Shown: in pieces, positions 1-62,227 of the stretch
How the letters are laid out: every line of letters starts with the position of its first letter
Position numbering within the stretch: the stretch's first letter is position 1
NCBI GenBank assembly: GCA_024654025.1
Contig: JANLIR010000002.1
Span: forward strand, 168,959-232,958
Source of the DNA: Candidatus Wolfebacteria bacterium
Lineage (GTDB): Bacteria; Patescibacteriota; Minisyncoccia; UBA6257; UBA9933
Length of the DNA: 64,000 bases
Reading direction: 5' to 3'
Notes under the pieces: model-generated
What the model was told of the DNA's origin: nothing
The model's database searches: none
Seen by the model: the letters and a program-made list of their open reading frames with translations, nothing else
Translations under genes and position numbers: made by a program

Positions 1-192
1 AAGCAGATTCAACCAAAGATAGTTATCCCTACTTTTTATAAGGTTCCCGGATTGAAAAGGAAAGCGGACGACATTAAAAAATTTTTGGAAGAAATAGACA
101 CCTCGAAAGTCGAAAAAACCGACAAGCTAGTCATAAAGAAAAAAGACATCGAGGAAATTAAGCCGACAAAAGTCGTTGTGCTGGCGATTTAA
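1..192 (+). CDS. 3' end of unidentified CDS entering from upstream (partial)
   Basis: Frame 1 is open from base 1 to TAA at 190-192 (...KPTKVVVLAI*). No recognisable motif. Confidence 0.35.
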   Translation, partial: KQIQPKIVIPTFYKVPGLKRKADDIKKFLEEIDTSKVEKTDKLVIKKKDIEEIKPTKVVVLAI

Positions 193-4732: not shown

Positions 4733-5152
4733 ATGAAATCGCTTTTGTTTAAAATTTCTATAGTATCAGCGATAATTTTCGCGGTTTTTACCACGAGTAT
4801 TTTTGTAGAAAAAGTTTTGGCAGTGTCCGGTGGAGGGGTTAATACAGCGGCGCCGGGCGGCGGAGTTGATTCTGTTGGCGGCGGTAACGGACAGCTTTTT
4901 AATTATTTCGGATCCGGTTCGACTCTTGACAGTGTCCTTTCCAAAATAATCGATTATTTTATCGGTGTTTCGGTTTCAGTGGCTGTGATAATAGTTATCT
5001 ATGGAGCGTGGAAAATGATGACCGCGACAGGCGATCCTAAAAAATTCCAAGAAGGCCAAAAAACAGTTTTGTACGCCGCTATCGGGTTGTTGGTAATTTT
5101 ACTCGCAAGAGGGATTATCGGCGCGTTGTATGGGATAATACAAACGTTATAA
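4733..5152 (+). CDS. TrbC/VirB2-like (T4SS-pilin-like) small membrane protein, paralog 2
   Basis: Signal/TM helix, Gly-rich linker, motif YGAWKMMTATGDPKKFQ between two TM helices. Confidence 0.55.
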   Translation: MKSLLFKISIVSAIIFAVFTTSIFVEKVLAVSGGGVNTAAPGGGVDSVGGGNGQLFNYFGSGSTLDSVLSKIIDYFIGVSVSVAVIIVIYGAWKMMTATGDPKKFQEGQKTVLYAAIGLLVILLARGIIGALYGIIQTL

Positions 5153-5192
5153 TAAATATAAAGAAAAAGGTCGAGAATGAGAAATCAAAAAA

Positions 5193-5558
5193 ATGAAAAA
5201 AGTTTTACAAAAAATTATTTATTCAGGAGCGATTTTATCGCTCGTATTGCCGGTATTTTCGTTTGCCGCGATATTTACTCCGCCAGGCCAGGGGCAACCT
5301 GGAAATATTCCTATAACCGGCCTCTCTAATGTGTATGACACGCTAGATACGGTAGCTAATTATTTGTTGGGATTATTAATTGCTTTGGCGGTTGTTTTCA
5401 TTGTTTGGGGAGCGTTTCAGTTTTTAACTTCCGGTGGAGATGAAGCAAAAACAAAAGCGGCAAGAAATCATATTCTCTGGGCTCTTGTAGCTGTCGCGGT
5501 TGGGTTACTTGCTAAAGGGCTAGTTGCCGCGATAAGAGGAATCGCCGGAAACTTATAA
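5193..5558 (+). CDS. TrbC/VirB2-like (T4SS-pilin-like) small membrane protein, paralog 3
   Basis: Signal/TM helix, motif WGAFQFLTSGGDEAKTK between two TM helices. Confidence 0.55.
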   Translation: MKKVLQKIIYSGAILSLVLPVFSFAAIFTPPGQGQPGNIPITGLSNVYDTLDTVANYLLGLLIALAVVFIVWGAFQFLTSGGDEAKTKAARNHILWALVAVAVGLLAKGLVAAIRGIAGNL

Positions 5559-7831: not shown

Positions 7832-8800
7832 TTATCCCCTTCTTCTTCCGTGAAATGTTTTGTGTATTTCTTTGAGTTCTTTATTTGTTAAATGCGTGTA
7901 AATTTGGGTTGTGGAAATATTGCTATGGCCTAAAAGTTCTTGCACAGACCTTAAATCCGCTCCTCCGATTAATAAATCAGTGGCAAAGCTATGCCGGAGC
8001 AAATGCGGGTGGATTTTTTGCGGTATCCCCGCTTTTCGGCCGTAAAAATCTATCAAGCGCTGAATTGCGCGAGGAATAATTCTCCCGATAACTTTCGGAT
8101 TTGCTTGCCCTGAGCTCATCGAGTCTGAGACTCTCAGAGTCGAATGACTTGTCGAACGGGTTGCTTTAGTTAAGCTTACAAACAGCGCTTCTTCGGCATC
8201 GGTTCGTTTTCCTAAATAATTTTTTATAGCTTTCTTGGCGGATTCGGATAAAAACACCACTCTTATTTTCCCGCCCTTGCCCCGCACGGAAATTTCTCCC
8301 CTATTCAAATCAAAATACCGGCTCAAAGAACATAATTCTGAAACGCGAAGCCCGGTTGAAAACAAAACTTCCAAAATCGCTTTGTCGCGAAGTCCTTTTA
8401 AATCGTTTGTTTTGGGCGCTGCCATAAGCCGTTCCAAATCCGAGTATTCCATTATATTGATTTGCCGGTTTGGAATTCTAGGAAGCTCGATTTTTTCCGA
8501 AGCTAAAACCCTGTAGTCGTTTTTCGCCAAAAATTTCAAAAAGTTTCTAAGCGCTATTATGTAGTAGCTTTGGGTTGTGCGTTTAAAGTTTTCTCCATCT
8601 CTGGGATTATGAAGCCGCGCCAGATAGATCCGAAAATCTCTTACGTTGTCAGCGGTGATATCGCCCTCGGATTTTATTTTGGCGAAATCAAAAAACTTCG
8701 TTAAATAGTGCTCATAATTTTCCCGCGTGTCTTTAGTCCTGCCTTTTTCAATCTCAAGATAATCAAGATAGTTTTTGAGGAGTTTGTTTATGTCAGCCAT
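7832..8800 (-). CDS. tyrosine recombinase (XerC/XerD-like integrase)
   Basis: Catalytic-domain motifs LFSTGLRVSEL, HPHLLRHSFATDLL, LLGHSNISTTQIYTH. Start placed at MADINK (8800). Carries a roughly 25-aa internal insertion. Confidence 0.85.
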   Translation of the reverse strand: MADINKLLKNYLDYLEIEKGRTKDTRENYEHYLTKFFDFAKIKSEGDITADNVRDFRIYLARLHNPRDGENFKRTTQSYYIIALRNFLKFLAKNDYRVLASEKIELPRIPNRQINIMEYSDLERLMAAPKTNDLKGLRDKAILEVLFSTGLRVSELCSLSRYFDLNRGEISVRGKGGKIRVVFLSESAKKAIKNYLGKRTDAEEALFVSLTKATRSTSHSTLRVSDSMSSGQANPKVIGRIIPRAIQRLIDFYGRKAGIPQKIHPHLLRHSFATDLLIGGADLRSVQELLGHSNISTTQIYTHLTNKELKEIHKTFHGRRRG

Positions 8801-8806
8801 AGCTTC

Positions 8807-8841
8807 GCAACCTGTAACTTGTAACAATTAACTTATAACAA
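8807..8841. repeat. 5 x 7-nt degenerate heptad array
   Basis: GCAACCT GTAACTT GTAACAA TTAACTT ATAACAA. Confidence 0.65.
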
Positions 8842-8865
8842 ATCAGTTTTAAATATTTCTCCCTC

Positions 8866-8900
8866 TAGTTACCAGTCACTGGTTACCAATCACTAGTTAG
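8866..8900. repeat. 5 x 7-nt degenerate heptad array
   Basis: TAGTTAC CAGTCAC TGGTTAC CAATCAC TAGTTAG. Confidence 0.65.
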
Positions 8901-9006
8901 ATAATACCATTGTTCTGTCGTAAAATAAATGGTTTTATAACATGTCTTATTAAAGCAGAGCATTTTTATTGACAAATAAACATTAAAATGATACCCTTTA
9001 AAAATC

Positions 9007-9273
9007 ATGTTAACCAAAACTCAAAAGAAAAGTTTGATTAAAGAACATGCTATTAACGAAAAAGACAGCGGTTCTATGGAAGTCCAAGTTGCTTTTTTAA
9101 CTAAGCAAATAAGCGAGCTTACCGGCCATCTTAAAAAAAATCCCAAGGACCATTCTTCCAGAAGGGGGTTGCTTCAAATGGTTGGCAAGAGAAAAAGATT
9201 TCTTGATTATCTTTCAACCAAAAGAAAATCTTCTTACGACAAGATTGTTAAAAAACTCGGACTTAAAAAATAA
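9007..9273 (+). CDS. rpsO: 30S ribosomal protein S15
   Basis: GSMEVQVAFLTKQISELTGHLKKNPKDHSSRRGLLQMVGKRKRFLDYL. Confidence 0.95.
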   Translation: MLTKTQKKSLIKEHAINEKDSGSMEVQVAFLTKQISELTGHLKKNPKDHSSRRGLLQMVGKRKRFLDYLSTKRKSSYDKIVKKLGLKK

Positions 9274-9798: not shown

Positions 9799-11910
9799 AT
9801 GCTTGAATCCAAAGAATTTTCAATTGATTTTCAAGGGAAACCCTTGAGCTTAAAAGTTTCCAAAATTGCCGAGCAAGCCAACTCGGCTGTTTTAGGCCAG
9901 TACGGCGATACCGTGGTTCTAGTAACCGCCACGATGGGCGAAAAAGACCGCGATACGGATTATTTTCCTTTGGTAGTTGATTACGAAGAAAAATTTTATG
10001 CCGCCGGAAAAATTATCGGCAGCCGGTTTATTCGGCGCGAAGGCCGGCCTTCGGAAGAAGCTATTCTTTCCGGAAGAATGATTGACCGGGCGCTTCGGCC
10101 CTTTTTTAATTCACGGATGAGAAGAGATGTTCAAATTGTAATCACTATCCTTTCTTACGACGAAGAAAACGATCCGGATTTTATTTCGCTTCTCTCCGCT
10201 TCAACCGCCTTGGCAATTTCCGATATTCCGTGGAATGGCCCTGTTGCCGGAGTAAGATTGGCAAAAATGAAAGGCGGAAATTTAATGATTAATCCGACCA
10301 AGACGGAAATTAGCGGCAGTGAATTTTTATTCGAATCTTTTGTCGCCGGAAATGAAAGTAAAATAAATATGATAGAACTGGCGGCAAACGAAGTTTCCGA
10401 AAAAGAAGTTATTAGTTCATTTGAAACAGCCCAGGAAGAAATAAAAAAATTGATAAAATTCCAAAAAGAAATTATTCCCAAAATCAGCAAACCAAAAGCC
10501 GAAGTGCTTCTTGTTGAGCCGGATCCGAATTTAAAGCATAAAGTTCAGGAATTTTTAAAAAATAAATTAGAAAACGCAGTTTATGTTTCCGATAAAGCCC
10601 AGCAGCGCCATATTTTGCGAAAGTTAAAAGAAGATTTGAAAGAGCATTTGGTTTCTGAGGGGCTAATTCCGGAAGGAATTGATGCTATTGTAGAGGAAGA
10701 AATCGACGCGCTTATCCATAAAAATATTTTGGAAAAAGATATGAGGCCGGACTCTCGAAAACTCGATGAGGTCAGAGCGCTTTTCGGCCAAGTCGGTTTA
10801 TTTAAACGGCTTCACGGTTCCGCCTTGTTTTTTAGGGGTAGTACTCAATCGTTGGCAGTTACAACTTTAGCCGCTCCCGGACAGGAGCAAATGATAGAAA
10901 CAATGGAAGTTTCAGGGAAACGCAGATTTATGCTCCATTACAATTTTCCGCCTTATTCGGTTGGAGAAATAGGCAGACTGGGCGGACCGGGACGCCGAGA
11001 AGTCGGCCACGGCGCTTTGGCGGAAAAAGCCATAAGGTCAATAATCCCCTCAAAAGAGGAATTCCCTTATACTATCCGTGTTGTTTCAGAGATTTTGTCT
11101 TCAAACGGGTCATCTTCTATGGCAACTGTCTGCTCGTCGGTATTATCGCTAATGGATGCAGGTGTTCCTATTAAAAAGCCGGTGGCAGGCATTGCTATGG
11201 GAATTATTATGGGACAAGCGACAAGCGACAAGCGACAAGATTACAAAGTGCTGACCGATATTCAAGGCCCGGAAGATCACTACGGCGATATGGATTGTAA
11301 AGTTGCAGGCACAACCGACGGAATTACCGCCATACAAATGGACGTGAAAATTGACGGCGTTACCACCGAAATTTTAAATGACGTGTTAGTTCAAGCCAAA
11401 AAAGCCCGCCTTGAGATTTTGGAAGTTATGAAATCCGTTATTGATAAGCCTAGGGAAAAACTTTCAGAGTTCGCGCCAATTATTTTGACAATCAACATTA
11501 GTCCGGAAAGAATCGGCGAAGTTATCGGCCCGGGCGGAAAAATGATTAATATGATAATTAAAGACACCGGCGTTACGACAATAGATATCGAACAAACCGG
11601 AAAAGTTTTTGTTTCCGCCACTACTCCCGAACAAGCCCAAGCGGCGATTGGGTTCATCCAATCCTTAACAAAAGAATTCGAGGTCGGCGAAATTATTGAA
11701 GGCAAGATTATCAAACTTTTGGAATTTGGAGCCATTGTCGATTTGGGAGGCGGCAATGACGGAATGATTCACATTTCAGAAGTAAAAAGCGGATTTGTAA
11801 AAGATATTAATGAAGTTCTTAAATTGGGCGATGTTGTGAGGGCAAAAATTATAAAAGTTGAAAACGGAAAAATCGGACTTTCGATAAAAGCCTTGGCGGA
11901 ACAAAAATAG
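9799..11910 (+). CDS. pnp: polynucleotide phosphorylase
   Basis: Two RNase PH domains (GSALFFRGSTQ, SSNGSSSMATVC, DHYGDMDCKVAGT), then KH (GPGGKMINMI) and S1 (GAIVDLGGGNDGMIHISE). Confidence 0.97.
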   Translation: MLESKEFSIDFQGKPLSLKVSKIAEQANSAVLGQYGDTVVLVTATMGEKDRDTDYFPLVVDYEEKFYAAGKIIGSRFIRREGRPSEEAILSGRMIDRALRPFFNSRMRRDVQIVITILSYDEENDPDFISLLSASTALAISDIPWNGPVAGVRLAKMKGGNLMINPTKTEISGSEFLFESFVAGNESKINMIELAANEVSEKEVISSFETAQEEIKKLIKFQKEIIPKISKPKAEVLLVEPDPNLKHKVQEFLKNKLENAVYVSDKAQQRHILRKLKEDLKEHLVSEGLIPEGIDAIVEEEIDALIHKNILEKDMRPDSRKLDEVRALFGQVGLFKRLHGSALFFRGSTQSLAVTTLAAPGQEQMIETMEVSGKRRFMLHYNFPPYSVGEIGRLGGPGRREVGHGALAEKAIRSIIPSKEEFPYTIRVVSEILSSNGSSSMATVCSSVLSLMDAGVPIKKPVAGIAMGIIMGQATSDKRQDYKVLTDIQGPEDHYGDMDCKVAGTTDGITAIQMDVKIDGVTTEILNDVLVQAKKARLEILEVMKSVIDKPREKLSEFAPIILTINISPERIGEVIGPGGKMINMIIKDTGVTTIDIEQTGKVFVSATTPEQAQAAIGFIQSLTKEFEVGEIIEGKIIKLLEFGAIVDLGGGNDGMIHISEVKSGFVKDINEVLKLGDVVRAKIIKVENGKIGLSIKALAEQK
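11213..11240 (+). repeat. heptanucleotide tandem repeat inside pnp
   Basis: GACAAGC x3 (perfect) plus GACAAGA. Encodes QATSDKRQD. Confidence 0.85.
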
Positions 11911-12905: not shown

Positions 12906-13049
12906 GATTCACCCCCATAGGATTTCGCCATTTTTGGCGTGAAGAGTGTGCCGATTTAAATAAAAACTGATTACAAACTAAGTTAAAAACGCATTGCTGT
13001 CAATTTCCTTCCCTTTATACTTTTTGCTTTCTACTTTATACTATCCATA

Positions 13050-16767: not shown

Positions 16768-17199
16768 ATGCAAACAAAAAAAATTACAGCAGAATATATT
16801 AGGGGCTTTATTGAGGGCGTGGGAACTTTTACTTTCACAACCTCGTCACGGGGTTTCAATAAAAAGGTTAAAATACCAACTTTTCAATTAAGAATGAATA
16901 TTCGAGATAAACGGTTAATTGAATTGATTAAAGGACATCTCGGACTTAAAAATAGGGTTTATATGTATCATTATCCGGGAACTGATGGCGCAAAACGAGG
17001 GCCACAAGCGATGTTAATAGTCCGAGAAATAGGTAATCTGAAAAATATAATCATCCCTTTCTTTTACGATAAGCTGGTTGGGTATAAAGCAGCCCAATTT
17101 AATAAGTGGCTTGAAAGAATAGGTAAAGACTCGGAAGTGCCAGAGGGATTTAAGATTCTATACCGTCTTCATAAATCCGGTTGGTTTTCAAAGAAATAG
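16768..17199 (+). CDS. free-standing LAGLIDADG homing endonuclease (single-motif type)
   Basis: AEYIRGFIEGVGTFTF is LAGLIDADG-like. 143 aa. Confidence 0.7.
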   Translation: MQTKKITAEYIRGFIEGVGTFTFTTSSRGFNKKVKIPTFQLRMNIRDKRLIELIKGHLGLKNRVYMYHYPGTDGAKRGPQAMLIVREIGNLKNIIIPFFYDKLVGYKAAQFNKWLERIGKDSEVPEGFKILYRLHKSGWFSKK

Positions 17200-31919: not shown

Positions 31920-31954
31920 GTTATAAGTTAATAGTTACAAGTTACTAGTTAATA
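31920..31954. repeat. 5 x 7-nt heptad array just upstream of rpmG
   Basis: GTTATAA GTTAATA GTTACAA GTTACTA GTTAATA. Confidence 0.75.
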
Positions 31955-31960
31955 ATTATT

Positions 31961-32570: not shown

Positions 32571-33815
32571 ATGAGGCGTTTCTATTTTGATTACGCTGCT
32601 ACTACTCCGATTGACCCAGAGGTTTTAAAAGAAATAAATTCTAATTTAAGGAATAATTTTGGCAATCCCGGATCGCTCAATTTTTTCGGGCAAGCCGCAA
32701 TGGCAATGGTTGATAAATCGCGCGAAAAAATCGCCAACGCAATCAACGCTGATTTTCGGGAAATAATTTTTACCGGATCCGCGACGGAGGCAAACAATCT
32801 CGCACTCAGAGGAATACTAAAAAACGCCCGCCTGCGCCAAGGCTTCGGCGGGCAGGTAAAAACTAAAAGCAAAAAACCGAGAATAATTGTTTCAGCTATT
32901 GAACACGAATCTATTTTAGAAACTGCTAGAGATTTATCCGCCAGAGGCGGATCCGCCTTTGGCGGAGAAAAAGAAGGCGTGGAAATTATTTATTTGCCGG
33001 TTGATAAAAACGGCGTTGTGGATTTAAAGAAGTTAGAGAACGCATTGAACGAAAGAACGATTTTGGTTTCAATAATGTACGCGAACAACGAAACCGGAGT
33101 CATACAACCAATAGCAGAAATCGCCGAAATTATAAAAAAATTCAAAGAAAAAAAATACCCTAAACCCTACACCCTAAACCCTACACCCTATTTTCACACC
33201 GACGCTGTCCAGGCGTTCCAATTTCTGGATTGCAATATTAAAAACTTAGGGGTAGATTTAATGACTTTATCGGCTCATAAAATTTACGGACCAAAAGGAA
33301 TTGGCGCGTTATACGTACGCAACTCACAACTCACAACCTACAACTTACAACCAATAATTACTGGAGGAAAACAAGAATTTGGATTAAGATCCGGCACTGA
33401 AAACGTTGCCATGATAGCTGGTTTCGCCAAAGCAATTGAATTGGCAAATGAGAAACGGGAAAAAGAGAAAAAAAGAATTTTTTTGCTGGCGCAATATTTT
33501 TTTAAAGAAATAAAAAAGATTGTTCCGAGCGCCCAACTAAACGCAGGGAAGGCCAAGCGGCTGCCTAATATTTTAAATATCGCTTTCTCGGGTTATGACG
33601 CGGAGAGTTTGCTGATAAAATTTGACCTTAACGGCACTGCTGTTTCCCGAGGCTCGGCGTGTATGGCGCGTTCGTCTCAGTCGTCTTATGTATTAAAAGA
33701 AATGGGACTAAGTGAAAGCGAGCAGCGCTCCAGTTTGCGGTTTAGCTTCGGCAGATTTACAACAAAAGAAGAAATGTCTAAAGCCTTGAAAATTATAAAA
33801 AAAACATTAAAATAG
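32571..33815 (+). CDS. cysteine desulfurase (IscS/NifS family)
   Basis: YFDYAATTP, FTGSATEANN, SAHKIYGPKGIGALYVR (PLP Lys), RSGTENV, SRGSACM (active Cys). Start placed at MRRFYF. Confidence 0.9.
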   Translation: MRRFYFDYAATTPIDPEVLKEINSNLRNNFGNPGSLNFFGQAAMAMVDKSREKIANAINADFREIIFTGSATEANNLALRGILKNARLRQGFGGQVKTKSKKPRIIVSAIEHESILETARDLSARGGSAFGGEKEGVEIIYLPVDKNGVVDLKKLENALNERTILVSIMYANNETGVIQPIAEIAEIIKKFKEKKYPKPYTLNPTPYFHTDAVQAFQFLDCNIKNLGVDLMTLSAHKIYGPKGIGALYVRNSQLTTYNLQPIITGGKQEFGLRSGTENVAMIAGFAKAIELANEKREKEKKRIFLLAQYFFKEIKKIVPSAQLNAGKAKRLPNILNIAFSGYDAESLLIKFDLNGTAVSRGSACMARSSQSSYVLKEMGLSESEQRSSLRFSFGRFTTKEEMSKALKIIKKTLK

Positions 33816-42874: not shown

Positions 42875-42890
42875 TTTTTGTTTTTTATAG

Positions 42891-43206
42891 TGGAAGCGGA
42901 GGGATTGAACCCTCGTCCGCAAATTTTTTTAAAAAAAATCTACAAGCTTAGTTCGTGAGAACAATTTTGCTCCTTATTCTCGTTTCGGATATCGGAGCGT
43001 TTCTCCGAAACAATCCCAATTTATTACACCAGCTAATCCCTTATTGGGAGTCAGAGGCTGATGGCTTAAGCTTTAACCGATTGGTTTAGGCGAAAGCGAA
43101 TGCCGGTTTATTGGCAATTATTTGTTGGTTCGTTGATTAGCGAGGTGACGCGCCATCCTCGGCCTGCATTTTTTTAAGAACAATCTGCGTCGAAACTTAC
43201 ACTCCC
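42891..43206 (-). ncRNA. ssrA: tmRNA (ssrA), predicted tag ANKPAFAFA
   Basis: 5' GGGAGTGTAAGTTTCGACGCAG pairs with 3' ...GGACGAGGGTTCAATCCCTCCGCTTCCA, giving acceptor GGGAGTG/CGCTTCC with G3-U70. PK1-like GCAGGCCGAGG..CCTCGC. Tag ORF GCC AAT AAA CCG GCA TTC GCT TTC GCC TAA. Confidence 0.8.
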
Positions 43207-44099: not shown

Positions 44100-45722
44100 A
44101 TGATAAAAGAAAGAATCAAGAAAATTATCAAAGACGCTGTTGGAGAGGAAGCCGAGATTTTTGTACCGGAAAATGAAAAATTCGGACATTACTCGACTAA
44201 TGTTGCTTTGAGATTGGCAAAAGAAAAAAGCAAAAAACCGATGGCGATTGCGGAGGACATAAAAGATAAAATATTATCCTTCGATAAACTCAGGACCTTC
44301 GGTAAAATCGAAATTGCTTCGCCAGGATTTATCAATTTTTGGATTTCAGAAAAAACTTTACAAAACGAATTAAAAGAAATTTTAAAAAAGAAAAATTCTT
44401 ATGGTAAAGCGTCAAGTGTCAAGCGTAAAATGGGAAGCATTCAAGTAGAGTTTATTTCCGCCAATCCGACCGGACCTTTAACAATCGGAAACGGAAGAGG
44501 CGGGTTTTTTGGAGATGTTTTGGCGAATATTTTGAAATTTTCCGGAAATAAAATTATCAAAGAGTATTATGTTAACGACGCTAAAAACAGCACGCAAATA
44601 AGGGAATTGGGTAAAACCGGGCTTGGTCTGGGGGAAACTTATTTAACTCCCGGATTAAAAAAAATAATCAAAAAATTAAAGTCGAAGATTAGTAATGTAA
44701 TCCTTCGTTGCGCTCAGGATGCTCCGCAAAGCGTCGCAGGCGAAGTCGGCTATTTGTTGGCAGGCGAAATAAATAAACAAAACAAGAAATTTGTTGAGAA
44801 AGTTTTAAAAATCAAATTCGACAAATGGTTTTCCGAAGAATCTTTGTATAAAAGCGGAGCGGTAAAAAAACTTTTAAGCGATTTGAAGAAGAAAAATTTA
44901 GTTTATGAAAAAGAAGGCGCCTCGTGGTTTAAAGCAAAACAATTTGGCGACACCGAGGACCGCGTGCTTATAAGAAGTTCGGGCGAGCCGACTTATATTG
45001 TGCCTGACCTTGCTTATCACGCGGATAAATTTAAAAAAAGAAAATTTTCTAAAGCCATTGATGTTTGGGGAGCGGATCATCATGGCTATATTCCTCGGCT
45101 CAAAGCCGGATTAAAATCGCTTGGAATTTCCGAAGACCGGTTGAAGATTGTTATTGCTCAGATGGTTCGGCTTGTTAAAAATGGCCAGGAATACAAAATG
45201 TCCAAAAGAAAAGGAGATTACGTGACAATGGAGGATTTAATAAAAGAAGTTGGGCTCGACGCGGCAAGATTTTTCTTTTTAATGAGCGCGCCGGACACTC
45301 ATATGAATTTTGACCTTGATCTGGCAAAAGAGCGTTCAATGAAAAATCCAGTTTATTACGCGCAGTACGCGGCAGTTAGGGCGAACAGTATTCTGCAAAA
45401 AAATAAAAAACTTAAAAACTTAAAAACTAAAAGCAACCCAAATTTAAATTTATTAAGTACGAAAGAGGATGTAAATTTAATGAAAATACTGGCGAGATTT
45501 CCGGAAATTGTCGAAGAAGCGGCCCAAAATTACAACCCGCAAATTTTAGTCAGATATTCAATTGACCTGGCAAGGCAATTTCACAATTTTTACGAGAAAG
45601 AACATGTCATAGGCGAGCGGGCGGATTTGATGTCGGCGCGATTAGAACTTATAAAAGCCACCAAAATAATTTTTGAAATTTTGTTCAAGCTTTTGGGGAT
45701 TAGCTATTCAAGAAAGATGTAA
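44100..45722 (+). CDS. argS: arginine--tRNA ligase
   Basis: Class I signatures ISANPTGPLTIGNGRGG (HIGH-like) and KMSKRKG. C-terminal anticodon-binding domain. Confidence 0.93.
   Translation: MIKERIKKIIKDAVGEEAEIFVPENEKFGHYSTNVALRLAKEKSKKPMAIAEDIKDKILSFDKLRTFGKIEIASPGFINFWISEKTLQNELKEILKKKNSYGKASSVKRKMGSIQVEFISANPTGPLTIGNGRGGFFGDVLANILKFSGNKIIKEYYVNDAKNSTQIRELGKTGLGLGETYLTPGLKKIIKKLKSKISNVILRCAQDAPQSVAGEVGYLLAGEINKQNKKFVEKVLKIKFDKWFSEESLYKSGAVKKLLSDLKKKNLVYEKEGASWFKAKQFGDTEDRVLIRSSGEPTYIVPDLAYHADKFKKRKFSKAIDVWGADHHGYIPRLKAGLKSLGISEDRLKIVIAQMVRLVKNGQEYKMSKRKGDYVTMEDLIKEVGLDAARFFFLMSAPDTHMNFDLDLAKERSMKNPVYYAQYAAVRANSILQKNKKLKNLKTKSNPNLNLLSTKEDVNLMKILARFPEIVEEAAQNYNPQILVRYSIDLARQFHNFYEKEHVIGERADLMSARLELIKATKIIFEILFKLLGISYSRKM
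44404..44438 (+). repeat. 5 x 7-nt heptad array inside argS
   Basis: GTAAAGC GTCAAGT GTCAAGC GTAAAAT GGGAAGC. Encodes GKASSVKRKMGS. Confidence 0.65.
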
Positions 45723-45814: not shown

Positions 45815-46654
45815 ATGCAAGCTATCAACGGGAAAGAAATTGCCCAAAAAATAATAGAAAATTTAAAAAATAAGCCAAAACCGGAAAAAATTTTGGCGGT
45901 AATTAAAGTTGGCGAAAACCCGGCATCAGAAAGTTTTATAAAGCAAAAAGAAAAAGTCGCCAAAGAATTGAAGGTGGATTTTCGGCTTTACGATCTTAAT
46001 GAGAATATCTCGCAAGATGATTTGAGAAAAGAAGTTGTTAAACTCGCTAATTTAAAAAAAGTAGGCGGAATAATTATTCAACTTCCTTTGCCAAAGCACA
46101 TAAATAATCAATACGTTTTAAACGTGATTCCGCGCGAAAAAGACATTGATGTTTTGGGCGAGCGATCTTTGGGCGCATTTTACGCCGGCCGTAATCCGGT
46201 TTTGCCGCCTTCAGTTGCCACAGTTGAAGAATTGTTGCGAGCTACAAGCTACAAGTTGCAAGTTGTAAAAGTTGCCGTTGTCGGTCTTGGCCAATTAGTG
46301 GGCAAACCAATTGCGGTGTGGCTGATAAAAAAATGTAAAGAACTTTATTTATTGGACCAAGGAAGCGACTTGGGAATATTAAAACAGGCGGATTTAGTGA
46401 TTTTAGGGGTTGGTAAAGCGGAAATTATAAGGCCGGATATGTTAAAGGAAAGCGCTTCAGTTATAGATTTCGGTTATGAAAGAAGCGAAGGACAAACAGG
46501 CGCTATTTCGGGAGATTTTGACGCCTCAGCGTTATTGGCTAGTGGCTATTCATTAATGACTGGGTTTTATACCCGTACTCCCGGCGGTACCGGTCCTGTG
46601 CTGGTGGCGAAAATTTTCGAAAACTTTTATACTTTGAACAATGAAAATGAATAG
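45815..46654 (+). CDS. folD: bifunctional methylenetetrahydrofolate dehydrogenase/cyclohydrolase
   Basis: VGENPASESFIKQKEK, GIIIQLPLP, DIDVLG, VVGLGQLVGKP, TPGGTGPV. Confidence 0.9.
   Translation: MQAINGKEIAQKIIENLKNKPKPEKILAVIKVGENPASESFIKQKEKVAKELKVDFRLYDLNENISQDDLRKEVVKLANLKKVGGIIIQLPLPKHINNQYVLNVIPREKDIDVLGERSLGAFYAGRNPVLPPSVATVEELLRATSYKLQVVKVAVVGLGQLVGKPIAVWLIKKCKELYLLDQGSDLGILKQADLVILGVGKAEIIRPDMLKESASVIDFGYERSEGQTGAISGDFDASALLASGYSLMTGFYTRTPGGTGPVLVAKIFENFYTLNNENE
46234..46268 (+). repeat. 5 x 7-nt heptad array inside folD
   Basis: GTTGCGA GCTACAA GCTACAA GTTGCAA GTTGTAA. Confidence 0.65.
46532..46561 (+). repeat. 30-nt repeat, copy 1 (in frame in folD)
   Basis: TTATTGGCTAGTGGCTATTCAttAATGACT. 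28/30 identical to 51390-51419. Confidence 0.85.
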
Positions 46655-47560: not shown

Positions 47561-47595
47561 CAGGGTTTAGGGTATAGCCACTAGGGTTTAGTGGA
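47561..47595. repeat. 5 x 7-nt heptad array between the LCP gene and pth
   Basis: CAGGGTT TAGGGTA TAGCCAC TAGGGTT TAGTGGA. Overlaps the last pth codons. Confidence 0.6.
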
Positions 47596-48130
47596 AAATT
47601 TCTCGGGAAGCTTTTTCAAAAACAGAACTTATTTTTTTCAGGTCTTCGTTGGAAATTTTTCTAAGTACGAGGTCTCCGGCTTTTTTCCTGCCTCTTAATT
47701 TAACAAGTAATCCTGTTTTTGTACCGTTTATTCCTATTCTTAACCGCCAGAATTTTTGAGTCTTTAACGCATGAATAATAGATTCTACTCCTTTGTGTCC
47801 CGCGCTTGACCGATTAAATTGTAATTTGTATTTTCCCAGTTCAATATCTGCGTCATCGTGGATTATTAAAATTTGTTCCGGTCTAATAGCGCTTTTTTGG
47901 GAAAAATATTTAATCGCCTCCGAAACCGCTTTGCCGGACTCGTTCATAAAAACCGATGATTTAATAATAACAACTTCGCCTTCTTTGAAGTATTCGAAAT
48001 TTTTACTTCTTTTCCATTGGACTCCCGTTTTATTGTTTAGAAAATCGGCAAATAAAAAACCAACATTGTGAAAAGTTTTTTCGTATTCTTTGTCGGGATT
48101 TCCCAATCCGATTGTTAATTTGACATTCAT
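47588..48130 (-). CDS. pth: peptidyl-tRNA hydrolase
   Basis: LTIGLGNPDKEYEKTFHNVGF, IIHDDADIELGK, SSAGHKG. Confidence 0.92.
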   Translation of the reverse strand: MNVKLTIGLGNPDKEYEKTFHNVGFLFADFLNNKTGVQWKRSKNFEYFKEGEVVIIKSSVFMNESGKAVSEAIKYFSQKSAIRPEQILIIHDDADIELGKYKLQFNRSSAGHKGVESIIHALKTQKFWRLRIGINGTKTGLLVKLRGRKKAGDLVLRKISNEDLKKISSVFEKASREIFH

Positions 48131-50489: not shown

Positions 50490-50550
50490 TTGATTTTTTG
50501 TTTGACATAATTTTTTTTATCTGCTAATTTTATCATCATTAACTAATTAA

Positions 50551-50585
50551 TTATAAGCTATCGGCTATCCACTATGGCTATTTCA
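50551..50585. repeat. heptad array overlapping the rpsU start codon
   Basis: TTATAAG CTATCGG CTATCCA CTATGGC TATTTCA. The ATG is at 50574. Confidence 0.55.
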
Positions 50586-54949: not shown

Positions 54950-55876
54950 CTATCTAAATAAGTTTTTTGGGTTAAAAAACTGAATATGTTTCTCCGGATA
55001 TCTTAAAAATTCAAATTTTTTTGGGTTTTTTATAAAAGCTTGATACAACGGCGTTTTGAAAATCTTTTTTGGCTTAACGATTTTAAAGTTAATCTGGTTT
55101 TTATAATTAGGATTTTTTTCTAATAGGAACGATGCTGATTTATGCGGATTTAACTGATTTATACGGATATTTTTCTTAATTTTTTTGTTATTGGTTATAA
55201 GTTGTCGGTTATTAGTTATATAGTAGGCGGCTCCGCGGTGTTTTTTAAAAAAACTATAATCCGATTTAAAATTTGTCGCCTGGATATTGGATAATACCAG
55301 CGGCTCGCTCCCAATATTTATGCTGACATGGCCGAATCCCGGAGGCACAATAACCTTTTCTCCTGTCCCGGCTTTTATTAAATAAATTCTAGCGTTTTTT
55401 CCAAAATGACCTACAGAATGATTTATTTGAGGACTTATTTCTTGAAAAAGAAAAAGCGCTTTTCCTTTTATAACTTCGTATATTTCCGGGTAGGTTGTTT
55501 TTGTTTGCGGTTTATTCGGGTGAGCGTGGCCGATTGTTTTTACGAATTCTTCGCCTAAAAATCCAGGATTGATAACGGTTATGTCGTAGGTCGCGTTGTT
55601 CTTTTTAAAAACCAAACCATCCTTTTTTAATTTGACGCTTCGATACATCAAATAAAGGTTTTTTATTTTGGTTTTGCTAGCGGGATCTTTTAAAAACCTT
55701 TTTGCTTCGCCCAAAGTCCTTTTTTGGACGGGCAATGAGGAGGCGTCTTTTGACAATAACAACTTACCATCTTTTATTGATATTGGCAAGCCCCGTAACT
55801 TAAAAACACCGGTCTTTTTATGACGCGCATTTGAGAGCTTAATATTATTTTTGAAATTGAGTTTACTTTTTGCCAT
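54950..55876 (-). CDS. cupin-type glucose-6-phosphate isomerase-like protein
   Basis: TIGHAHPNKPQTKTTYPEIYEV (TxGHxH...ExY) and VPPGFGHVSIN (PPxxxHxxxN), as in archaeal cupin PGIs. Confidence 0.65.
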   Translation of the reverse strand: MAKSKLNFKNNIKLSNARHKKTGVFKLRGLPISIKDGKLLLSKDASSLPVQKRTLGEAKRFLKDPASKTKIKNLYLMYRSVKLKKDGLVFKKNNATYDITVINPGFLGEEFVKTIGHAHPNKPQTKTTYPEIYEVIKGKALFLFQEISPQINHSVGHFGKNARIYLIKAGTGEKVIVPPGFGHVSINIGSEPLVLSNIQATNFKSDYSFFKKHRGAAYYITNNRQLITNNKKIKKNIRINQLNPHKSASFLLEKNPNYKNQINFKIVKPKKIFKTPLYQAFIKNPKKFEFLRYPEKHIQFFNPKNLFR

Positions 55877-57874: not shown

Positions 57875-57883
57875 GATTTAATT

Positions 57884-58014
57884 ACAAATCCTAAATTCTA
57901 AGCACTAAACTCTAAACAAATTCAAATCACCAAAATCCAAAATTCAAAACGTTTAGAATTTAAAACATTTGAATTTTGATATTGTTTAGGATTTAGATAT
58001 TAGGATTTAGAGTT
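57884..58014. repeat. AT-rich imperfect long palindrome built from heptads
   Basis: Left arm AATCCTA AATTCTA AGCACTA AACTCTA... Centre AAAACGTTT near 57950. Right arm ...TTTAGGATTTAGATATTAGGATTTAGAG. Confidence 0.5.
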
Positions 58015-58380
58015 TTATTCCTTGTAAAGCCGTTTTGCGGAAAAATGAACTAAAAGATTGATAACGCTTATTAGTATCGTAGCATAAAGAAGCGGCGTTA
58101 GTCCAGATATTGTAATGTCAGTTGAAAAATAGTCAAGGATGTAGAGAGTAAGCGTGTTAACAATAATAATCCCCAATCCAAGAGTTATAAAGATTATCGG
58201 CGTAAAAATCAATTTTAAAATCGGTCTGATAAACATATTTATCAAAGTGAATATCAGTGTCGCGCTGGCAAGTCCATAAAGGCTGGCGCTGATACTGAAT
58301 CCGGAAATAAAATATTTAGCCGCCAAAAGCGCCAACACATTGGAAAAAAAGGAAAATATAAATTTTGAGATAATCCGCAT
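58015..58380 (-). CDS. 4-TM membrane protein (phage holin 4 / DUF360-like)
   Basis: FIRPILKLIFTPIIFITLGL. Four TM helices, 121 aa. Confidence 0.55.
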   Translation of the reverse strand: MRIISKFIFSFFSNVLALLAAKYFISGFSISASLYGLASATLIFTLINMFIRPILKLIFTPIIFITLGLGIIIVNTLTLYILDYFSTDITISGLTPLLYATILISVINLLVHFSAKRLYKE

Positions 58381-59193: not shown

Positions 59194-59228
59194 TATTGGC
59201 GATTAGTGATTAGCCACTAGTAGGGATA
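59194..59228. repeat. 5 x 7-nt heptad array
   Basis: TATTGGC GATTAGT GATTAGC CACTAGT AGGGATA. Confidence 0.6.
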
Positions 59229-62092: not shown

Positions 62093-62227
62093 ACCCCGCA
62101 CCTTTTATGGATATATTTTTTTCGAAGCGGCAAAATGGGGTAAAATTTAATCACTTAAAAATAAATATTTGGAAATTTGAATGCTATAATGCTAAGTAAG
62201 CTTCGCAATCCATAAAAGGTGCGGGGT
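62093..62227. repeat. 20-bp perfect inverted repeat pair bracketing the recA upstream region
   Basis: ACCCCGCACCTTTTATGGAT (62093-62112) against ATCCATAAAAGGTGCGGGGT (62208-62227). Confidence 0.85.
62182..62190 (+). promoter_or_regulatory. candidate extended -10 (TGCTATAAT) for recA
   Basis: TGcTATAAT lies 45 nt upstream of the recA ATG, inside the inverted-repeat element. Confidence 0.35.

What the first reader, a model, noticed from the sequence alone, without database searches (positions are those of the whole stretch)
8807..8900. Genome-style feature: blocks of about five degenerate heptads (about 35 nt) recur at gene boundaries and in CDSs
I read at least twelve arrays with a clear 7-nt period.
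- 8807-8841 and 8866-8900, which contains (GTTACCAnTCACTn)x2.
- 11213-11240 (pnp).
- 31920-31954, GTTAnnA x5, directly before rpmG.
- 33157-33191 and 33321-33355.
- 44404-44438 (argS).
- 46234-46268 (folD).
- 47561-47595.
- 50551-50585, spanning the rpsU ATG.
- 59194-59228.
- The long array at 57884-58014.

Unit sequences differ between arrays, but the period and the roughly five-unit length are constant. I know of no described function. Possibilities include protein-binding arrays, replication-slippage hotspots, or footprints of a repair or insertion process.
Basis: seen in the sequence. Interest (0 to 1): 0.65.

Follow-up and report, generated by a model that had tools for sequence, protein, structure and literature searches.

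The report
Heptanucleotide tandem repeats in a Patescibacteria genome
The 7-base periodic blocks are real: they are short heptanucleotide tandem repeats, a known but unexplained repeat class, here seen in a candidate-phyla-radiation bacterium where units stay alike by DNA-level copying even inside essential genes.

Summary
Runs with 7-nt periodicity are far more frequent than chance: 19, 7 and 5 runs at >=18, 20 and 22 of 28 lag-7 matches, against about 2, 0.2 and 0.02 in Markov simulations and 0-6 for other non-triplet periods. Four of the twelve listed arrays are individually at background level. Array length is not fixed: 3-7 units, mode 4.

The window comes from a groundwater Patescibacteria (CPR) genome. 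This is the known class of over-represented heptanucleotide simple-sequence repeats (Mrazek 2007; cyanobacterial STRR, TAACTGA in Beggiatoaceae, GGGAATC in Xanthomonas). I found no report of it in CPR.

Main findings:
- Density is patchy across phyla.
- Arrays are about 15-fold enriched in intergenic DNA.
- About a fifth form inverted pairs that fold into long hairpins.
- Intergenic arrays are gained, lost or rebuilt between strains 88-99% identical.
- The folD and argS arrays sit at length-conserved sites in relatives down to 65% protein identity. Each lineage has its own homogenised unit, which is concerted evolution at the DNA level.

Best explanation: slipped-strand or template-switch copying in 7-nt register, with arrays kept where tolerated and some hairpins probably put to use. 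No sequence-specific binding protein is indicated.

The parts
8807..8841 (-). Heptad array (GTTAnnA-type when read on the minus strand), ending 7 nt before the ATG (8798-8800, minus strand) of a XerC/D-like integrase gene. It is the left arm of an inverted pair.
   Evidence: 18-19/28 lag-7 matches. 25/26 identical to 31920-31945. The whole block 8801-8904 is absent from strains L083-L088, which are 97-99% identical. Integrase family by Pfam.
8866..8900 (+). Array with period 14, (GTTACCAnTCACTn)x2.5. It is the right arm of the inverted pair with 8807-8841.
   Evidence: TRF gives period 14, 2.5 copies, score 56. Lag 14 is 17/21 and lag 7 only 15/28. The pair gives a weak hairpin, z = -2.0.
11209..11245 (+). 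(GACAAGC)x4-5 inside pnp, encoding GQATSDKRQD in a surface loop of variable length.
   Evidence: TRF gives 100% matches. The loop is about 5 aa longer than in most of 80 relatives. Independent heptad or 14-nt expansions occur in the same loop in L048 and L005. The array is identical in strains L083 and L084.
13013..13047 (+). CTTTnTA-type array abutting the ATG (13050) of ruvA.
   Evidence: 20/28. ruvA by Pfam. No predicted RNA structure, MFE 0. Identical in strain L083.
31920..31958 (+). GTTAnnA x5, directly before the ATG (31961) of rpmG (L33).
   Evidence: 22/28. The pattern GTTANNAGTTANNAGTTA gives 6 matches against 0.04 expected. One SNP in strain L082 and otherwise identical. Unstructured as RNA.
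33155..33190 (+). (ACCCTAn)x5 inside the cysteine desulfurase gene, encoding YPKPYTLNPTPY. It forms most of a 13-aa insertion.
   Evidence: 24/28. 13-residue gap opposite human NFS1. Shares a 14/14 stretch with 47562-47575 on the opposite strand.
33318..33354 (+). CAACTnA-type array in the same cysteine desulfurase gene; nearly length-neutral (+2 aa).
   Evidence: 22-23/28. Alignment to NFS1. 21/23 match to 55188-55210 on the opposite strand.
44404..44438 (+). GnnAAGC-type array inside argS, at a length-conserved site.
   Evidence: 18/28. Orthologous arrays with other units occur at the same site in L095, L217 ((ACAAGTC)x4, 22/28) and L218. There are no gaps in the protein alignment.
46234..46268 (+). 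GTTGCGA GCTACAA GCTACAA GTTGCAA GTTGTAA inside folD, at a length-conserved site.
   Evidence: 22/28. No gap against solved FolD 3p2o or among 15 relatives. Orthologous arrays carry lineage-specific units in L217, L095, L218 and L219 (25/28).
47561..47595 (+). Weak TAGGGTn-type array filling the 29-nt spacer between two convergent genes (a LytR-family gene and pth).
   Evidence: Only 15/28, which is background level on its own. About 25 nt of it are absent in the 88%-identical relative L090.
50540..50585 (+). nGCTATn-type array running into the ATG (50574) of rpsU (S21).
   Evidence: 18/28 in register 50540. Relatives L090, L092, L093 and L094 carry different sequence here.
55184..55218 (+). 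TnnGTTA-type array inside a glucose-6-phosphate isomerase-family gene that lies on the minus strand.
   Evidence: 19/28. Identical in strain L096. Gene family.
57879..58014 (.). Nested inverted heptad arrays (CTAAAnn / CCAAAAT facing ATTTTGn / TTTAGnn) that fill the whole spacer between a holin-family gene and secG, forming a ~125-nt imperfect hairpin.
   Evidence: Lag 7 is 56% over 124 positions. RNA fold -33.4 kcal/mol, z = -5.1. Strain L096 (flanks 99% identical) has a shorter, different hairpin at the same place, z = -7.2; the window carries about 70 extra nt.
59194..59228 (+). Doubtful array just after the stop codon of a mechanosensitive-channel gene.
   Evidence: 15/28, which cannot be told from background.

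Best explanation
The blocks are heptanucleotide tandem repeats: simple-sequence repeats with a 7-nt unit, the class that includes cyanobacterial STRRs.

How I think they work:
- They arise and are kept internally alike by a DNA-level copying process that works in 7-nt register. The likely mechanism is slipped-strand mispairing or short template switching of the nascent strand during replication or repair synthesis. This either adds units or overwrites one unit with its neighbour.
- They persist where they do little harm: in the short intergenic spacers of this compact genome and in tolerant stretches of proteins.
- In spacers, arrays often come as inverted pairs and so form long hairpins. Some of these have probably been put to use as RNA 3'-end or stability elements.
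- Solitary arrays in front of start codons give unstructured A/T-rich upstream sequence.
- No sequence-specific binding protein is needed.

Shown here: the excess of period 7, its patchy phylogenetic spread, turnover between relatives, recurrence in the same protein loop, concerted evolution inside genes, and the hairpins.

Inferred: the slippage or template-switch mechanism itself, the reason the unit is 7 nt, and any function.
For: 1. The period-7 excess is specific. Other periods do not rise, in the window or in array-rich loci.
2. Units are highly diverse (109 arrays, mostly different units).
3. Variation inside arrays is spread over the 7 columns as expected for uniformly mutated repeats: 2.87 invariant columns observed against 3.19 simulated.
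4. Array density is patchy. It is high in some CPR MAGs and in a Pyrinomonadaceae (Acidobacteria) MAG, and near zero in most of 80 pnp loci: 1.18 against 0.05 per 10 kb.
5. The same PNPase loop carries independent heptad or 14-nt expansions in the window, L048 and L005. L095 FolD has its own heptad expansion.
6. Intergenic arrays are gained, lost or rebuilt between close relatives:
   - 8801-8904
   - 47561
   - rpsU upstream
   - the secG hairpin
   - the L095 smpB-ssrA pair
7. Concerted evolution at the folD site, which has the same length in all 15 relatives:
   - window: GCTACAA / GTTGCAA
   - L217: (GTTACAA)x4
   - L095: GTTGTnA
   - L218: ACTACGA / ACTACAA
   - L219: (ACTACAA)x5, 25/28
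   Column 1 is G in every unit of three lineages and A in nearly every unit of the two others. This changes different codon positions and different amino acids (A to T, S to N, V to T), which protein-level selection cannot explain.
8. The argS site behaves the same way.
9. The two arrays differ by 40% between the window and L095, against 14% for the rest of the two genes (Fisher p = 1.6e-7), yet both lineages keep the periodicity.
10. Arrays are enriched in intergenic DNA: 6 of 13 in 9.5% of the window (p = 7e-4), and 54 of 84 pooled.
11. Inverted partners at >=18/21 within 200 nt occur for 21 of 109 arrays, against 1-2 in reverse or complement controls. Their hairpins have z = -5 to -8.
12. 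The literature reports the same class, with slippage already proposed (PMC4679880, PMC4692102).
Against: - No unit-number polymorphism was seen in the seven arrays compared between strains 1-2% apart. Slippage is therefore not fast here. Imperfect arrays are expected to be stabilised, but this still weakens the analogy with classical hypervariable SSRs.
- The 25/26 identity between the arrays before rpmG and before the integrase gene, both about 40 nt upstream of an ATG in sense orientation, cannot come from local slippage. It needs ectopic copying or common selection.
- The block 8801-8904 appears as a whole unit in one strain.
- A hairpin is kept at the secG locus although its sequence changed. 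The smpB-ssrA array is 33/35 identical between L095 and L220. Both hint at selection on some intergenic arrays.
- Units from different genomes are slightly more alike than composition-matched shuffles: 322 against a mean of 269 and a maximum of 318.
- Neither the number 7 nor the patchy distribution is explained.
Confidence: 0.6

Rival explanations
1. The arrays are functional cis-elements kept by selection. Solitary arrays in front of start codons would act as promoter or leader modules, or as binding platforms for a general single-strand-binding factor (S1, Csp, CsrA-like), as proposed for TAACTGA repeats. Inverted pairs would act as terminators, processing sites or mRNA-stabilising hairpins. 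The coding arrays would be by-products of the same generating process.
For: - Arrays abut or lie within 10 nt of the ATG of rpmG, the integrase gene, ruvA, rpsU and secG.
- The same 26-mer sits at the same distance from two unrelated start codons.
- The genome nearly lacks Shine-Dalgarno sites (8 of 78 ORFs), as in the Beggiatoaceae case (PMC4679880).
- Solitary arrays are unstructured as RNA.
- A hairpin is retained at the secG locus despite sequence turnover.
- One L075 hairpin is followed by a U-run.
- The smpB-ssrA array is nearly identical in L095 and L220.
- Reporter data in Nostoc show a modest regulatory effect of heptamer repeats (10.1101/2022.06.06.494920).
Against: - The arrays before rpsU, at 47561 and at 8801-8904 are absent or different in relatives 88-99% identical, where the same genes work without them.
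- In a genome with about 9.5% non-coding DNA, almost any intergenic element lies near a start codon.
- Units are too diverse for one specific binder.
- Roughly a third of arrays lie in coding sequence on either strand.
- No covariation test was possible.
Confidence: 0.25
2. The arrays are operator-like binding sites for a dimeric DNA-binding protein that reads 7-bp units cooperatively, like the omega ribbon-helix-helix repressor of pSM19035, which binds direct and inverted WATCACW heptads.
For: - The period is 7 bp, and direct and inverted orientations occur in promoter regions.
- One unit at 8887-8893 (AATCACT) fits WATCACW (the consensus is from memory).
Against: - Only that one array resembles the consensus. 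The units of other arrays are unrelated.
- Inverted arms are separated by spacers rather than being contiguous.
- Arrays occur inside essential genes.
- No ribbon-helix-helix protein was found among the 10 ORFs scanned.
- Dozens of specificities per genome would be needed.
Confidence: 0.04
3. The arrays are very small mobile or templated insertions, or footprints of insertion and excision or of break repair, dispersed as preformed blocks of about 35-100 nt.
For: - The block 8801-8904 is present in one strain only.
- Its left arm is a 25/26 copy of the rpmG array, which the other strains do have.
- These genomes do carry other small insertions in genes: GC-rich mini-palindromes, and a 21-nt motif found exactly in two different genes of two distant genomes.
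- Elhai et al. 2008 described small dispersed repeats embedded in heptamer arrays in Nostoc (from memory).
Against: - The 8801-8904 block has no target-site duplication and no terminal inverted repeat. It replaces 9 nt rather than inserting cleanly.
- Apart from three pairs, arrays share no sequence.
- The folD and argS arrays are length-neutral and evolve in place.
- Independent units arise in the same loop in different lineages.
Confidence: 0.1
4. Chance periodicity in A/T-rich sequence.
For: Four of the twelve listed arrays (14-15/28) cannot be told from what other lags give.
Against: At >=18/28 there are 19 arrays against about 2 expected and 0-6 for other lags. At >=22 there are 5 against 0.02.
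Confidence: 0.01

Closest known systems
Over-represented heptanucleotide long simple-sequence repeats in prokaryotes (Mrazek, Guo & Shah 2007, as summarised in PMC4679880 and PMC4692102)
   Same: - Tandem 7-nt units.
- More abundant than other unit lengths of 5-11 nt.
- Phylogenetically scattered and mostly intergenic.
- Polymerase slippage has been proposed as the cause.
   Different: - That survey counted long, near-perfect repeats in cultured taxa. Here the arrays are short (3-7 units) and degenerate, and they are in a Patescibacteria genome.
- Coding arrays at length-conserved sites, with lineage-specific homogenised units, are not mentioned in the two papers I read (the 2007 paper itself was not held).
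Cyanobacterial heptamer repeats (STRR; Nostoc PCC 7120 (TTTTGAA)3-4 and (GACYAAT)8 near start codons, bioRxiv 10.1101/2022.06.06.494920; STRR consensus units recalled from Mazel et al. 1990)
   Same: - Many different 7-nt units in one genome.
- Located near start codons or promoters, sometimes overlapping the ATG.
- Function unresolved.
- TTCAAAA-type units also occur in the CPR loci (L022:7742; window 57930).
   Different: - The unit sequences differ: none of CCCCAGT, TTGGTCA or CAACAGT is present.
- Cyanobacterial arrays reach tens of units.
- No link to heterocystous cyanobacteria.
TAACTGA direct repeats of marine Beggiatoaceae, cyanobacteria and Bacteroidetes (MacGregor 2015, PMC4679880)
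   Same: - 2-6 copies, mostly a few nt upstream of start codons.
- The host genome is poor in Shine-Dalgarno sites.
- Some repeats precede ribosomal protein genes.
- Patchy distribution.
- GTTATCA, the reverse-complement rotation of TAACTGA, is the most common unit among my metagenome hits. L062:11509 carries (TAACTGA)x4.
   Different: - There, one heptamer dominates the genome. Here, units differ from array to array.
- The window's GTTAnnA arrays face the opposite way relative to the downstream gene.
GGGAATC / (GGGANTN)n repeats of Xanthomonas and GGGGAYT of Nostoc (Rehm et al. 2015, PMC4692102)
   Same: - Heterogeneous heptads, mostly about 4 units.
- Intergenic.
- Occasional inverted pairs able to form stem-loops.
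- Length and sequence vary between close species at the same locus.
   Different: - Those are G-rich and can form quadruplexes, and one unit family dominates each genome.
- The arrays here are A/T-rich and of many families.
Omega repressor heptad operators of inc18 plasmids (from memory: de la Hoz 2000; Weihofen 2006)
   Same: 7-bp units in direct and inverted orientation in promoter regions.
   Different: - The operator consensus is a single one, WATCACW.
- The operator heptads are contiguous.
- A cognate ribbon-helix-helix protein is required.
- None of these three is met here.
Tandem repeats of Borg elements (PMC9879509)
   Same: - Tandem repeats arise independently in intergenic and coding DNA.
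- They evolve fast.
- They write new peptide segments into proteins.
   Different: - Borg units in genes are multiples of 3 and of many lengths.
- Here the unit is 7 nt, so each 3 units encode 7 residues, and arrays also sit in conserved housekeeping genes.

Membership tests
Heptanucleotide SSR class (long SSRs with 7-nt unit; STRR-like) | Head-to-tail copies of a 7-nt unit, at least 3-4 copies | tested here: met
   TRF and lag-7 counts.
Heptanucleotide SSR class (long SSRs with 7-nt unit; STRR-like) | More frequent than composition predicts, and more frequent than neighbouring unit lengths | tested here: met
   19, 7 and 5 arrays against about 2, 0.2 and 0.02 in Markov simulations, and 0-6 for other lags.
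Heptanucleotide SSR class (long SSRs with 7-nt unit; STRR-like) | Preferentially intergenic | tested here: met
   6 of 13 arrays in 9.5% of the window, p = 7e-4. 54 of 84 arrays in array-rich loci, where 11% of the DNA is non-coding.
Heptanucleotide SSR class (long SSRs with 7-nt unit; STRR-like) | Unit number varies between close strains (SSR instability) | tested here: inconclusive
   No unit-number change in 7 arrays at 1-2% divergence. Two intergenic loci do differ by whole blocks. At 12% divergence arrays are gained, lost or rewritten.
Cyanobacterial STRR1-3 sequence families | Units CCCCAGT, TTGGTCA or CAACAGT (recalled from Mazel 1990) | tested here: not met
   None of the window's array units matches these.
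TAACTGA repeat system (MacGregor 2015) | Unit TAACTGA in forward orientation just upstream of start codons | tested here: not met
   The window has GTTAnnA with variable nn, in the opposite orientation to the downstream gene. The location near the ATG is shared. True (TAACTGA)n occurs in L062 and in metagenome hits.
Omega-type heptad operators | Consensus WATCACW in contiguous direct or inverted heptads, plus a cognate RHH protein | tested here: not met
   One unit fits (8887-8893). The other arrays are unrelated, and the arms are separated by a 24-nt spacer. No RHH domain in the 10 ORFs scanned; the rest of the genome was not available.
Phase-variable contingency loci | Near-perfect repeats whose unit number switches a gene on or off between strains | tested here: not met
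   The arrays are degenerate, lie in frame in housekeeping genes (pnp, folD, argS, cysteine desulfurase), and do not vary between strains.
MITE / small dispersed repeat | Defined termini (terminal inverted repeats), target-site duplication, many near-identical copies | tested here: not met
   No duplication or terminal repeats at the 8801-8904 polymorphism. Only three array pairs share sequence. A genuine MITE elsewhere in the window (62094-62226) looks quite different.
Intrinsic terminators (for the inverted pairs) | G+C-rich stem followed by a U-run at a gene's 3' end | tested here: inconclusive
   Long stable hairpins sit after stop codons. One in L075 is followed by U6. The window's hairpins are A/U-rich and have no U-run. 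No transcript data were available.

The most novel reading that the evidence does not exclude
The periodicity may be actively maintained rather than a passive slippage by-product. One version is a dedicated molecular system, restricted to certain lineages, that copies DNA in 7-nt steps. The other is a factor that measures 7 nt and selects for the period.

Such a system would explain three things:
- arrays at length-conserved sites of essential genes (folD, argS) stay sharply periodic and are re-homogenised in every lineage over deep divergence (65% protein identity);
- the trait appears in scattered phyla (CPR, Acidobacteria, cyanobacteria, Beggiatoaceae, Xanthomonas);
- an identical array can appear at a second locus.
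Probability: 0.15. Interest if true: 0.8.

Novelty: new member of a known kind. Interest (0 to 1): 0.42.

Why it matters
Why bacteria over-represent 7-nt repeats has been an open question since 1990 and 2007.

This lineage offers a clean handle on it. It has compact genomes, many sampled relatives, and orthologous arrays inside housekeeping genes where length is fixed. At those sites, unit-to-unit copying can be read directly from alignments.

The arrays also show DNA-level repeat dynamics writing peptide segments into essential enzymes. For example, ATSYKLQ in FolD is the translation of (GCTACAA)x3.

There is a practical point as well. In CPR genomes these blocks and their hairpins fill much of the scarce intergenic space, so they matter for predicting promoters, terminators and gene starts.

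Tried and rejected
- **Global autocorrelation.** The lag-7 match fraction over the whole window is not raised. Only local-run statistics show the effect.
- **'Conserved 5-nt core plus 2 variable positions'.** By eye this looked striking (GTTAnnA, GnnAAGC). Against simulated arrays with uniformly placed mutations and the same lag-7 score, invariant columns are not in excess: 2.87 against 3.19. Columns with 3 or more states are only marginally more frequent: 0.98 against a mean of 0.77 and a maximum of 1.0. I dropped the idea.
- **One shared motif across arrays.** Units are diverse. Cross-genome similarity is only slightly above composition-matched shuffles.
- **Omega-type operator, contingency locus, MITE.** Each fails a defining feature (see the membership tests).
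- **Known RNA families.** Rfam finds only the tmRNA and 8 tRNAs, none overlapping an array.
- **Hairpins for solitary arrays.** None is predicted.
- **Unit-number polymorphism among strains.** None was found.
- **Look-ups that failed.** No exact match on record for the holin-family protein or for Pth. Mrazek 2007 is not held, so I cite it second-hand.
- **MAFFT on the 8770-9010 region.** It misaligned because of the large indel. I replaced it with BLAST coordinates and a local alignment.
- **Metagenome scan for GTTAnnA x4.** It shows that the class is widespread but gives no frequency estimate.
Full report
**1. What is in the sequence**

Every coordinate in the finding holds the described sequence.
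- Clear cases: (GACAAGC)x4 in pnp, GTTAnnA x5 before rpmG, (ACCCTAn)x5 and CAACTnA x5 in a cysteine desulfurase gene, and GTTGCGA GCTACAA GCTACAA GTTGCAA GTTGTAA in folD.
- Tandem Repeats Finder reports several of them independently.
- 8866-8900 is really a 14-nt repeat, (GTTACCAnTCACTn)x2.5.
- Gene identities agree with Pfam annotation on matching contigs.

**2. Is it more than chance?**

I counted non-overlapping 35-nt windows by the number of positions identical to the base p nt downstream.
- Period 7 gives 19, 7 and 5 windows at >=18, 20 and 22 of 28. Periods 4, 5, 8, 10, 11 and 13 give 0-6, 0-2 and 0-1.
- Markov simulations of order 1, 3 and 5 (200 each) give means near 2, 0.2 and 0.02.
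- With a stricter maximal-segment score, only period 7 and its harmonic 14 yield non-triplet arrays.
- At 14-15 of 28, period 7 is no different from other lags.
- The window-wide lag-7 autocorrelation is flat. The signal lies in local runs.
- Array length is not constant. It is 3-7 units with mode 4 in the window and related loci. GTTAnnA arrays in metagenomes run from 4 to 54 units with a falling distribution.

**3. Source and relatives**

- The PNPase gene places the window in Patescibacteria (CPR). The best species-level relative is 67% identical.
- Exact-protein look-ups recovered the same or sister strains from Hainich groundwater assemblies and an NCBI MAG at 97-99% nucleotide identity (L081-L089, L096). 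They also recovered a sister species at about 88% (L090, L091, L095) and more distant relatives (L217-L220).
- Seven arrays are identical across independent assemblies, so they are not assembly artefacts.

**4. Distribution across genomes**

- Among 80 pnp loci from different species, period-7 arrays are concentrated in a minority. These include several CPR MAGs (L022, L024, L046, L016, L027, L028, L045 and others), a Pyrinomonadaceae MAG (L075) and other Acidobacteria (L054). Most loci have none.
- In the array-rich loci no other period rises: 1.18 per 10 kb for period 7 against at most 0.22 for any other. The remaining loci have 0.05 per 10 kb. The rich set was chosen on period 7, so only the contrast between periods is informative.
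- All six relatives of the window's own clade show the excess.

**5. Position and architecture**

- In the window, 6 of 13 non-low-complexity arrays lie in the 9.5% of non-coding DNA (p = 7e-4). Pooled with the rich loci, 54 of 84 are intergenic (using a crude ORF map).
- 21 of 109 arrays have an inverted copy (>=18/21) within 200 nt. Controls give 1-2 (reversed or complemented query) and 5 (direct copies).
- These pairs fold into long hairpins: z = -5.1 for window 57875-58020, and z = -6 to -8 in L075, L062 and L096.
- Solitary arrays in front of start codons (rpmG, ruvA) have no predicted structure.
- The genome almost lacks Shine-Dalgarno sites (8 of 78 ORFs). Many genes have a TATAAT-like box 6-8 nt before the ATG. 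The absence of an SD site next to arrays is therefore not specific to them.

**6. Turnover between relatives**

- The block 8801-8904 (both arms plus spacer) is missing from six strain contigs that are 97-99% identical on both sides. It replaces 9 nt next to the integrase start codon and has no target duplication.
- Its left arm is 25/26 identical to the array before rpmG, which the other strains do carry.
- The secG-holin spacer has 99%-identical flanks in strain L096. Its hairpin there is about 70 nt shorter and differs in sequence, yet it still folds strongly.
- About 25 nt of the 47561 block are absent in the 88% relative. The sequence before rpsU differs in all relatives.
- L095 and L220 carry an inverted heptad pair between smpB and the tmRNA gene that the window lacks.
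- No array shows a simple unit-number difference between strains.

**7. Arrays inside genes**

- The pnp array lies in a loop of variable length. The window's loop is about 5 residues longer than usual.
- Two other lineages have expanded the same loop independently: L048 with (CCAACRA)x4 and L005 with a 14-nt duplication.
- The first cysteine desulfurase array makes up a 13-residue insertion relative to human NFS1.
- The folD and argS arrays lie where protein length is invariant. There is no gap against solved FolD structures and none among 15 relatives down to 64% identity.

**8. Concerted evolution**

At the folD site the orthologous 35 nt read as follows:

| Locus | Units | Lag-7 |
|---|---|---|
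| window, L096 | GTTGCGA GCTACAA GCTACAA GTTGCAA GTTGTAA | 22/28 |
| L217 | GTTACAA GTTACGA GTTACAA GTTACAA GTTGTTA | 23/28 |
| L095 | GTTGTTA GTTGTTG GGTGTCA GTTGTCA GTTATGA | 21/28 |
| L218 | ACTACGA ACCACAA ACTACGA ACTACAA ATAAAAA | 20/28 |
| L219 | TCTACAA ACTACAA ACTACAG ACTACAA ACTACAA | 25/28 |
| L220 | decayed | 14/28 |

- The most distant relative has the sharpest array.
- Whole columns differ between lineages while being uniform within them. Column 1 is G in every unit of the window, L217 and L095, and A in nearly every unit of L218 and L219.
- Because 7 is not a multiple of 3, the same column falls on different codon positions. It yields different amino-acid changes (A to T, S to N, V to T).
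- This is what DNA-level homogenisation predicts and what protein-level selection does not.
- ATSYKLQ is exactly the translation of (GCTACAA)x3.
- The argS site behaves the same way. L217 has (ACAAGTC)x4, and the window, L095 and L218 have different GnnAAGC variants.
- Between the window and L095 the two arrays differ at 28 of 70 positions, against 333 of 2364 for the rest of the two genes (Fisher p = 1.6e-7). Both lineages remain periodic.
- Because length never changes at these sites, unit-to-unit conversion (slip back, copy, slip forward) is more parsimonious than repeated loss and regain of three units.

**9. Ideas that failed**

- The 'core plus spacer' impression is not supported against simulated uniform decay.
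- Units are diverse. Similarity between genomes is only slightly above composition-matched shuffles.
- Rfam finds nothing at the arrays.
- Omega-type operators, contingency loci and MITEs each fail a defining feature.

**10. Comparison with what is known**

- Two papers (PMC4679880, PMC4692102) summarise Mrazek et al. 2007. In that work heptanucleotide repeats are the most abundant long-SSR class in most repeat-rich prokaryotic genomes, they are phylogenetically scattered, and polymerase slippage over a ~7-nt contact was proposed.
- Xanthomonas GGGAATC arrays are heterogeneous, mostly four units, sometimes inverted, and vary between close species.
- Beggiatoaceae TAACTGA arrays sit just upstream of start codons in an SD-poor genome, including ribosomal protein genes.
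- Nostoc has many heptamer arrays near start codons, with modest effects in reporter assays.
- My metagenome scan shows GTTAnnA arrays are widespread. GTTATCA, the reverse-complement rotation of TAACTGA, is the most common.
- No held paper links such repeats to Patescibacteria.
- The window is therefore a new member of a known, mechanistically unexplained class. The length-neutral coding arrays with lineage-specific homogenisation add to what the two papers I read describe.

**11. Verdict**

- The feature is real, and it is a known kind in a new lineage.
- The most likely origin is mutational: copying in 7-nt register with ongoing homogenisation. Arrays persist where tolerated, and some intergenic hairpins have probably been put to use (confidence 0.6).
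- Three things remain unexplained: why the unit is 7 nt, why only some lineages show it, and how a 26-nt array came to be duplicated at a second locus.

Noticed in passing
window 32826-32853 and 32937-32966; L096:1729-1790: GC-rich mini-palindromes are inserted in frame in coding sequence. GCCCGCCTGCGCCAAGGCTTCGGCGGGC and TCCGCCAGAGGCGGATCCGCCTTTGGCGGA make 12-aa and 10-aa insertions in the cysteine desulfurase relative to NFS1. Strain L096 has a 60-nt in-frame insertion of the same style in argS, which the window and L095 lack. They recall Rickettsia palindromic elements.
   Followed up: partly
L018:3720 (pnp loop), L095:5570 (folD); degenerate copies at window 8103(-) and window 44277-44300: The 21-nt motif TTCGACAAGCTCAGGGCAAGC occurs exactly in two different genes of two distant CPR genomes, each time as an in-frame insertion. 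Copies with 2-4 mismatches occur in L006, L008 (two copies), L029 and the window's integrase gene; a shorter resemblance, found by eye, lies in the window's argS. The pnp heptad unit GACAAGC is contained in the motif, so that array may have been seeded by it.
   Followed up: partly
window 62094-62226; solo end at window 54881; L089:1407-1547: A MITE-like element with terminal inverted repeats CCCCGCACCTTT...AAAGGTGCGGGG. One copy is intergenic in the window. A 146-nt copy, flanked by a TTTGAC duplication, sits at the 5' end of pth in strains L089 and L096 and is absent from the window at 48124.
   Followed up: partly
window 8801-8962 versus L083:1238-1838: The sister strains carry a 135-aa ORF with no Pfam match, followed by a canonical GC-rich terminator, between the integrase gene and rpsO. 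The window has the heptad pair there instead.
   Followed up: partly
window, all gene starts: Only 8 of 78 ORFs have a Shine-Dalgarno-like motif. Many have a TATAAT-like box 6-8 nt before the start codon, which suggests widespread leaderless or short-leader mRNAs.
   Followed up: no
L095:2085-2179 and L220:295-329: An inverted heptad pair (nnTCTAA x4 facing TTAGAAn) lies between smpB and the tmRNA gene. It is 33/35 identical between two species whose FolD proteins are each about 71-80% identical to the window's. It is absent from the window, where the tmRNA (42888-43206) abuts smpB.
   Followed up: partly
window 16768-17199; 4733-5558; L217:1-331: A free-standing LAGLIDADG endonuclease ORF; two adjacent ORFs resembling type IV secretion pilins; and a reverse-transcriptase gene next to argS in relative L217.
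   Followed up: no
L062:11509-11543: (TAACTGA)x4, the Beggiatoaceae and cyanobacterial heptamer, occurs in an unclassified MAG with 58% G+C. It lies next to a perfect (AGCTAAC)x5 array that has an inverted partner.
   Followed up: no
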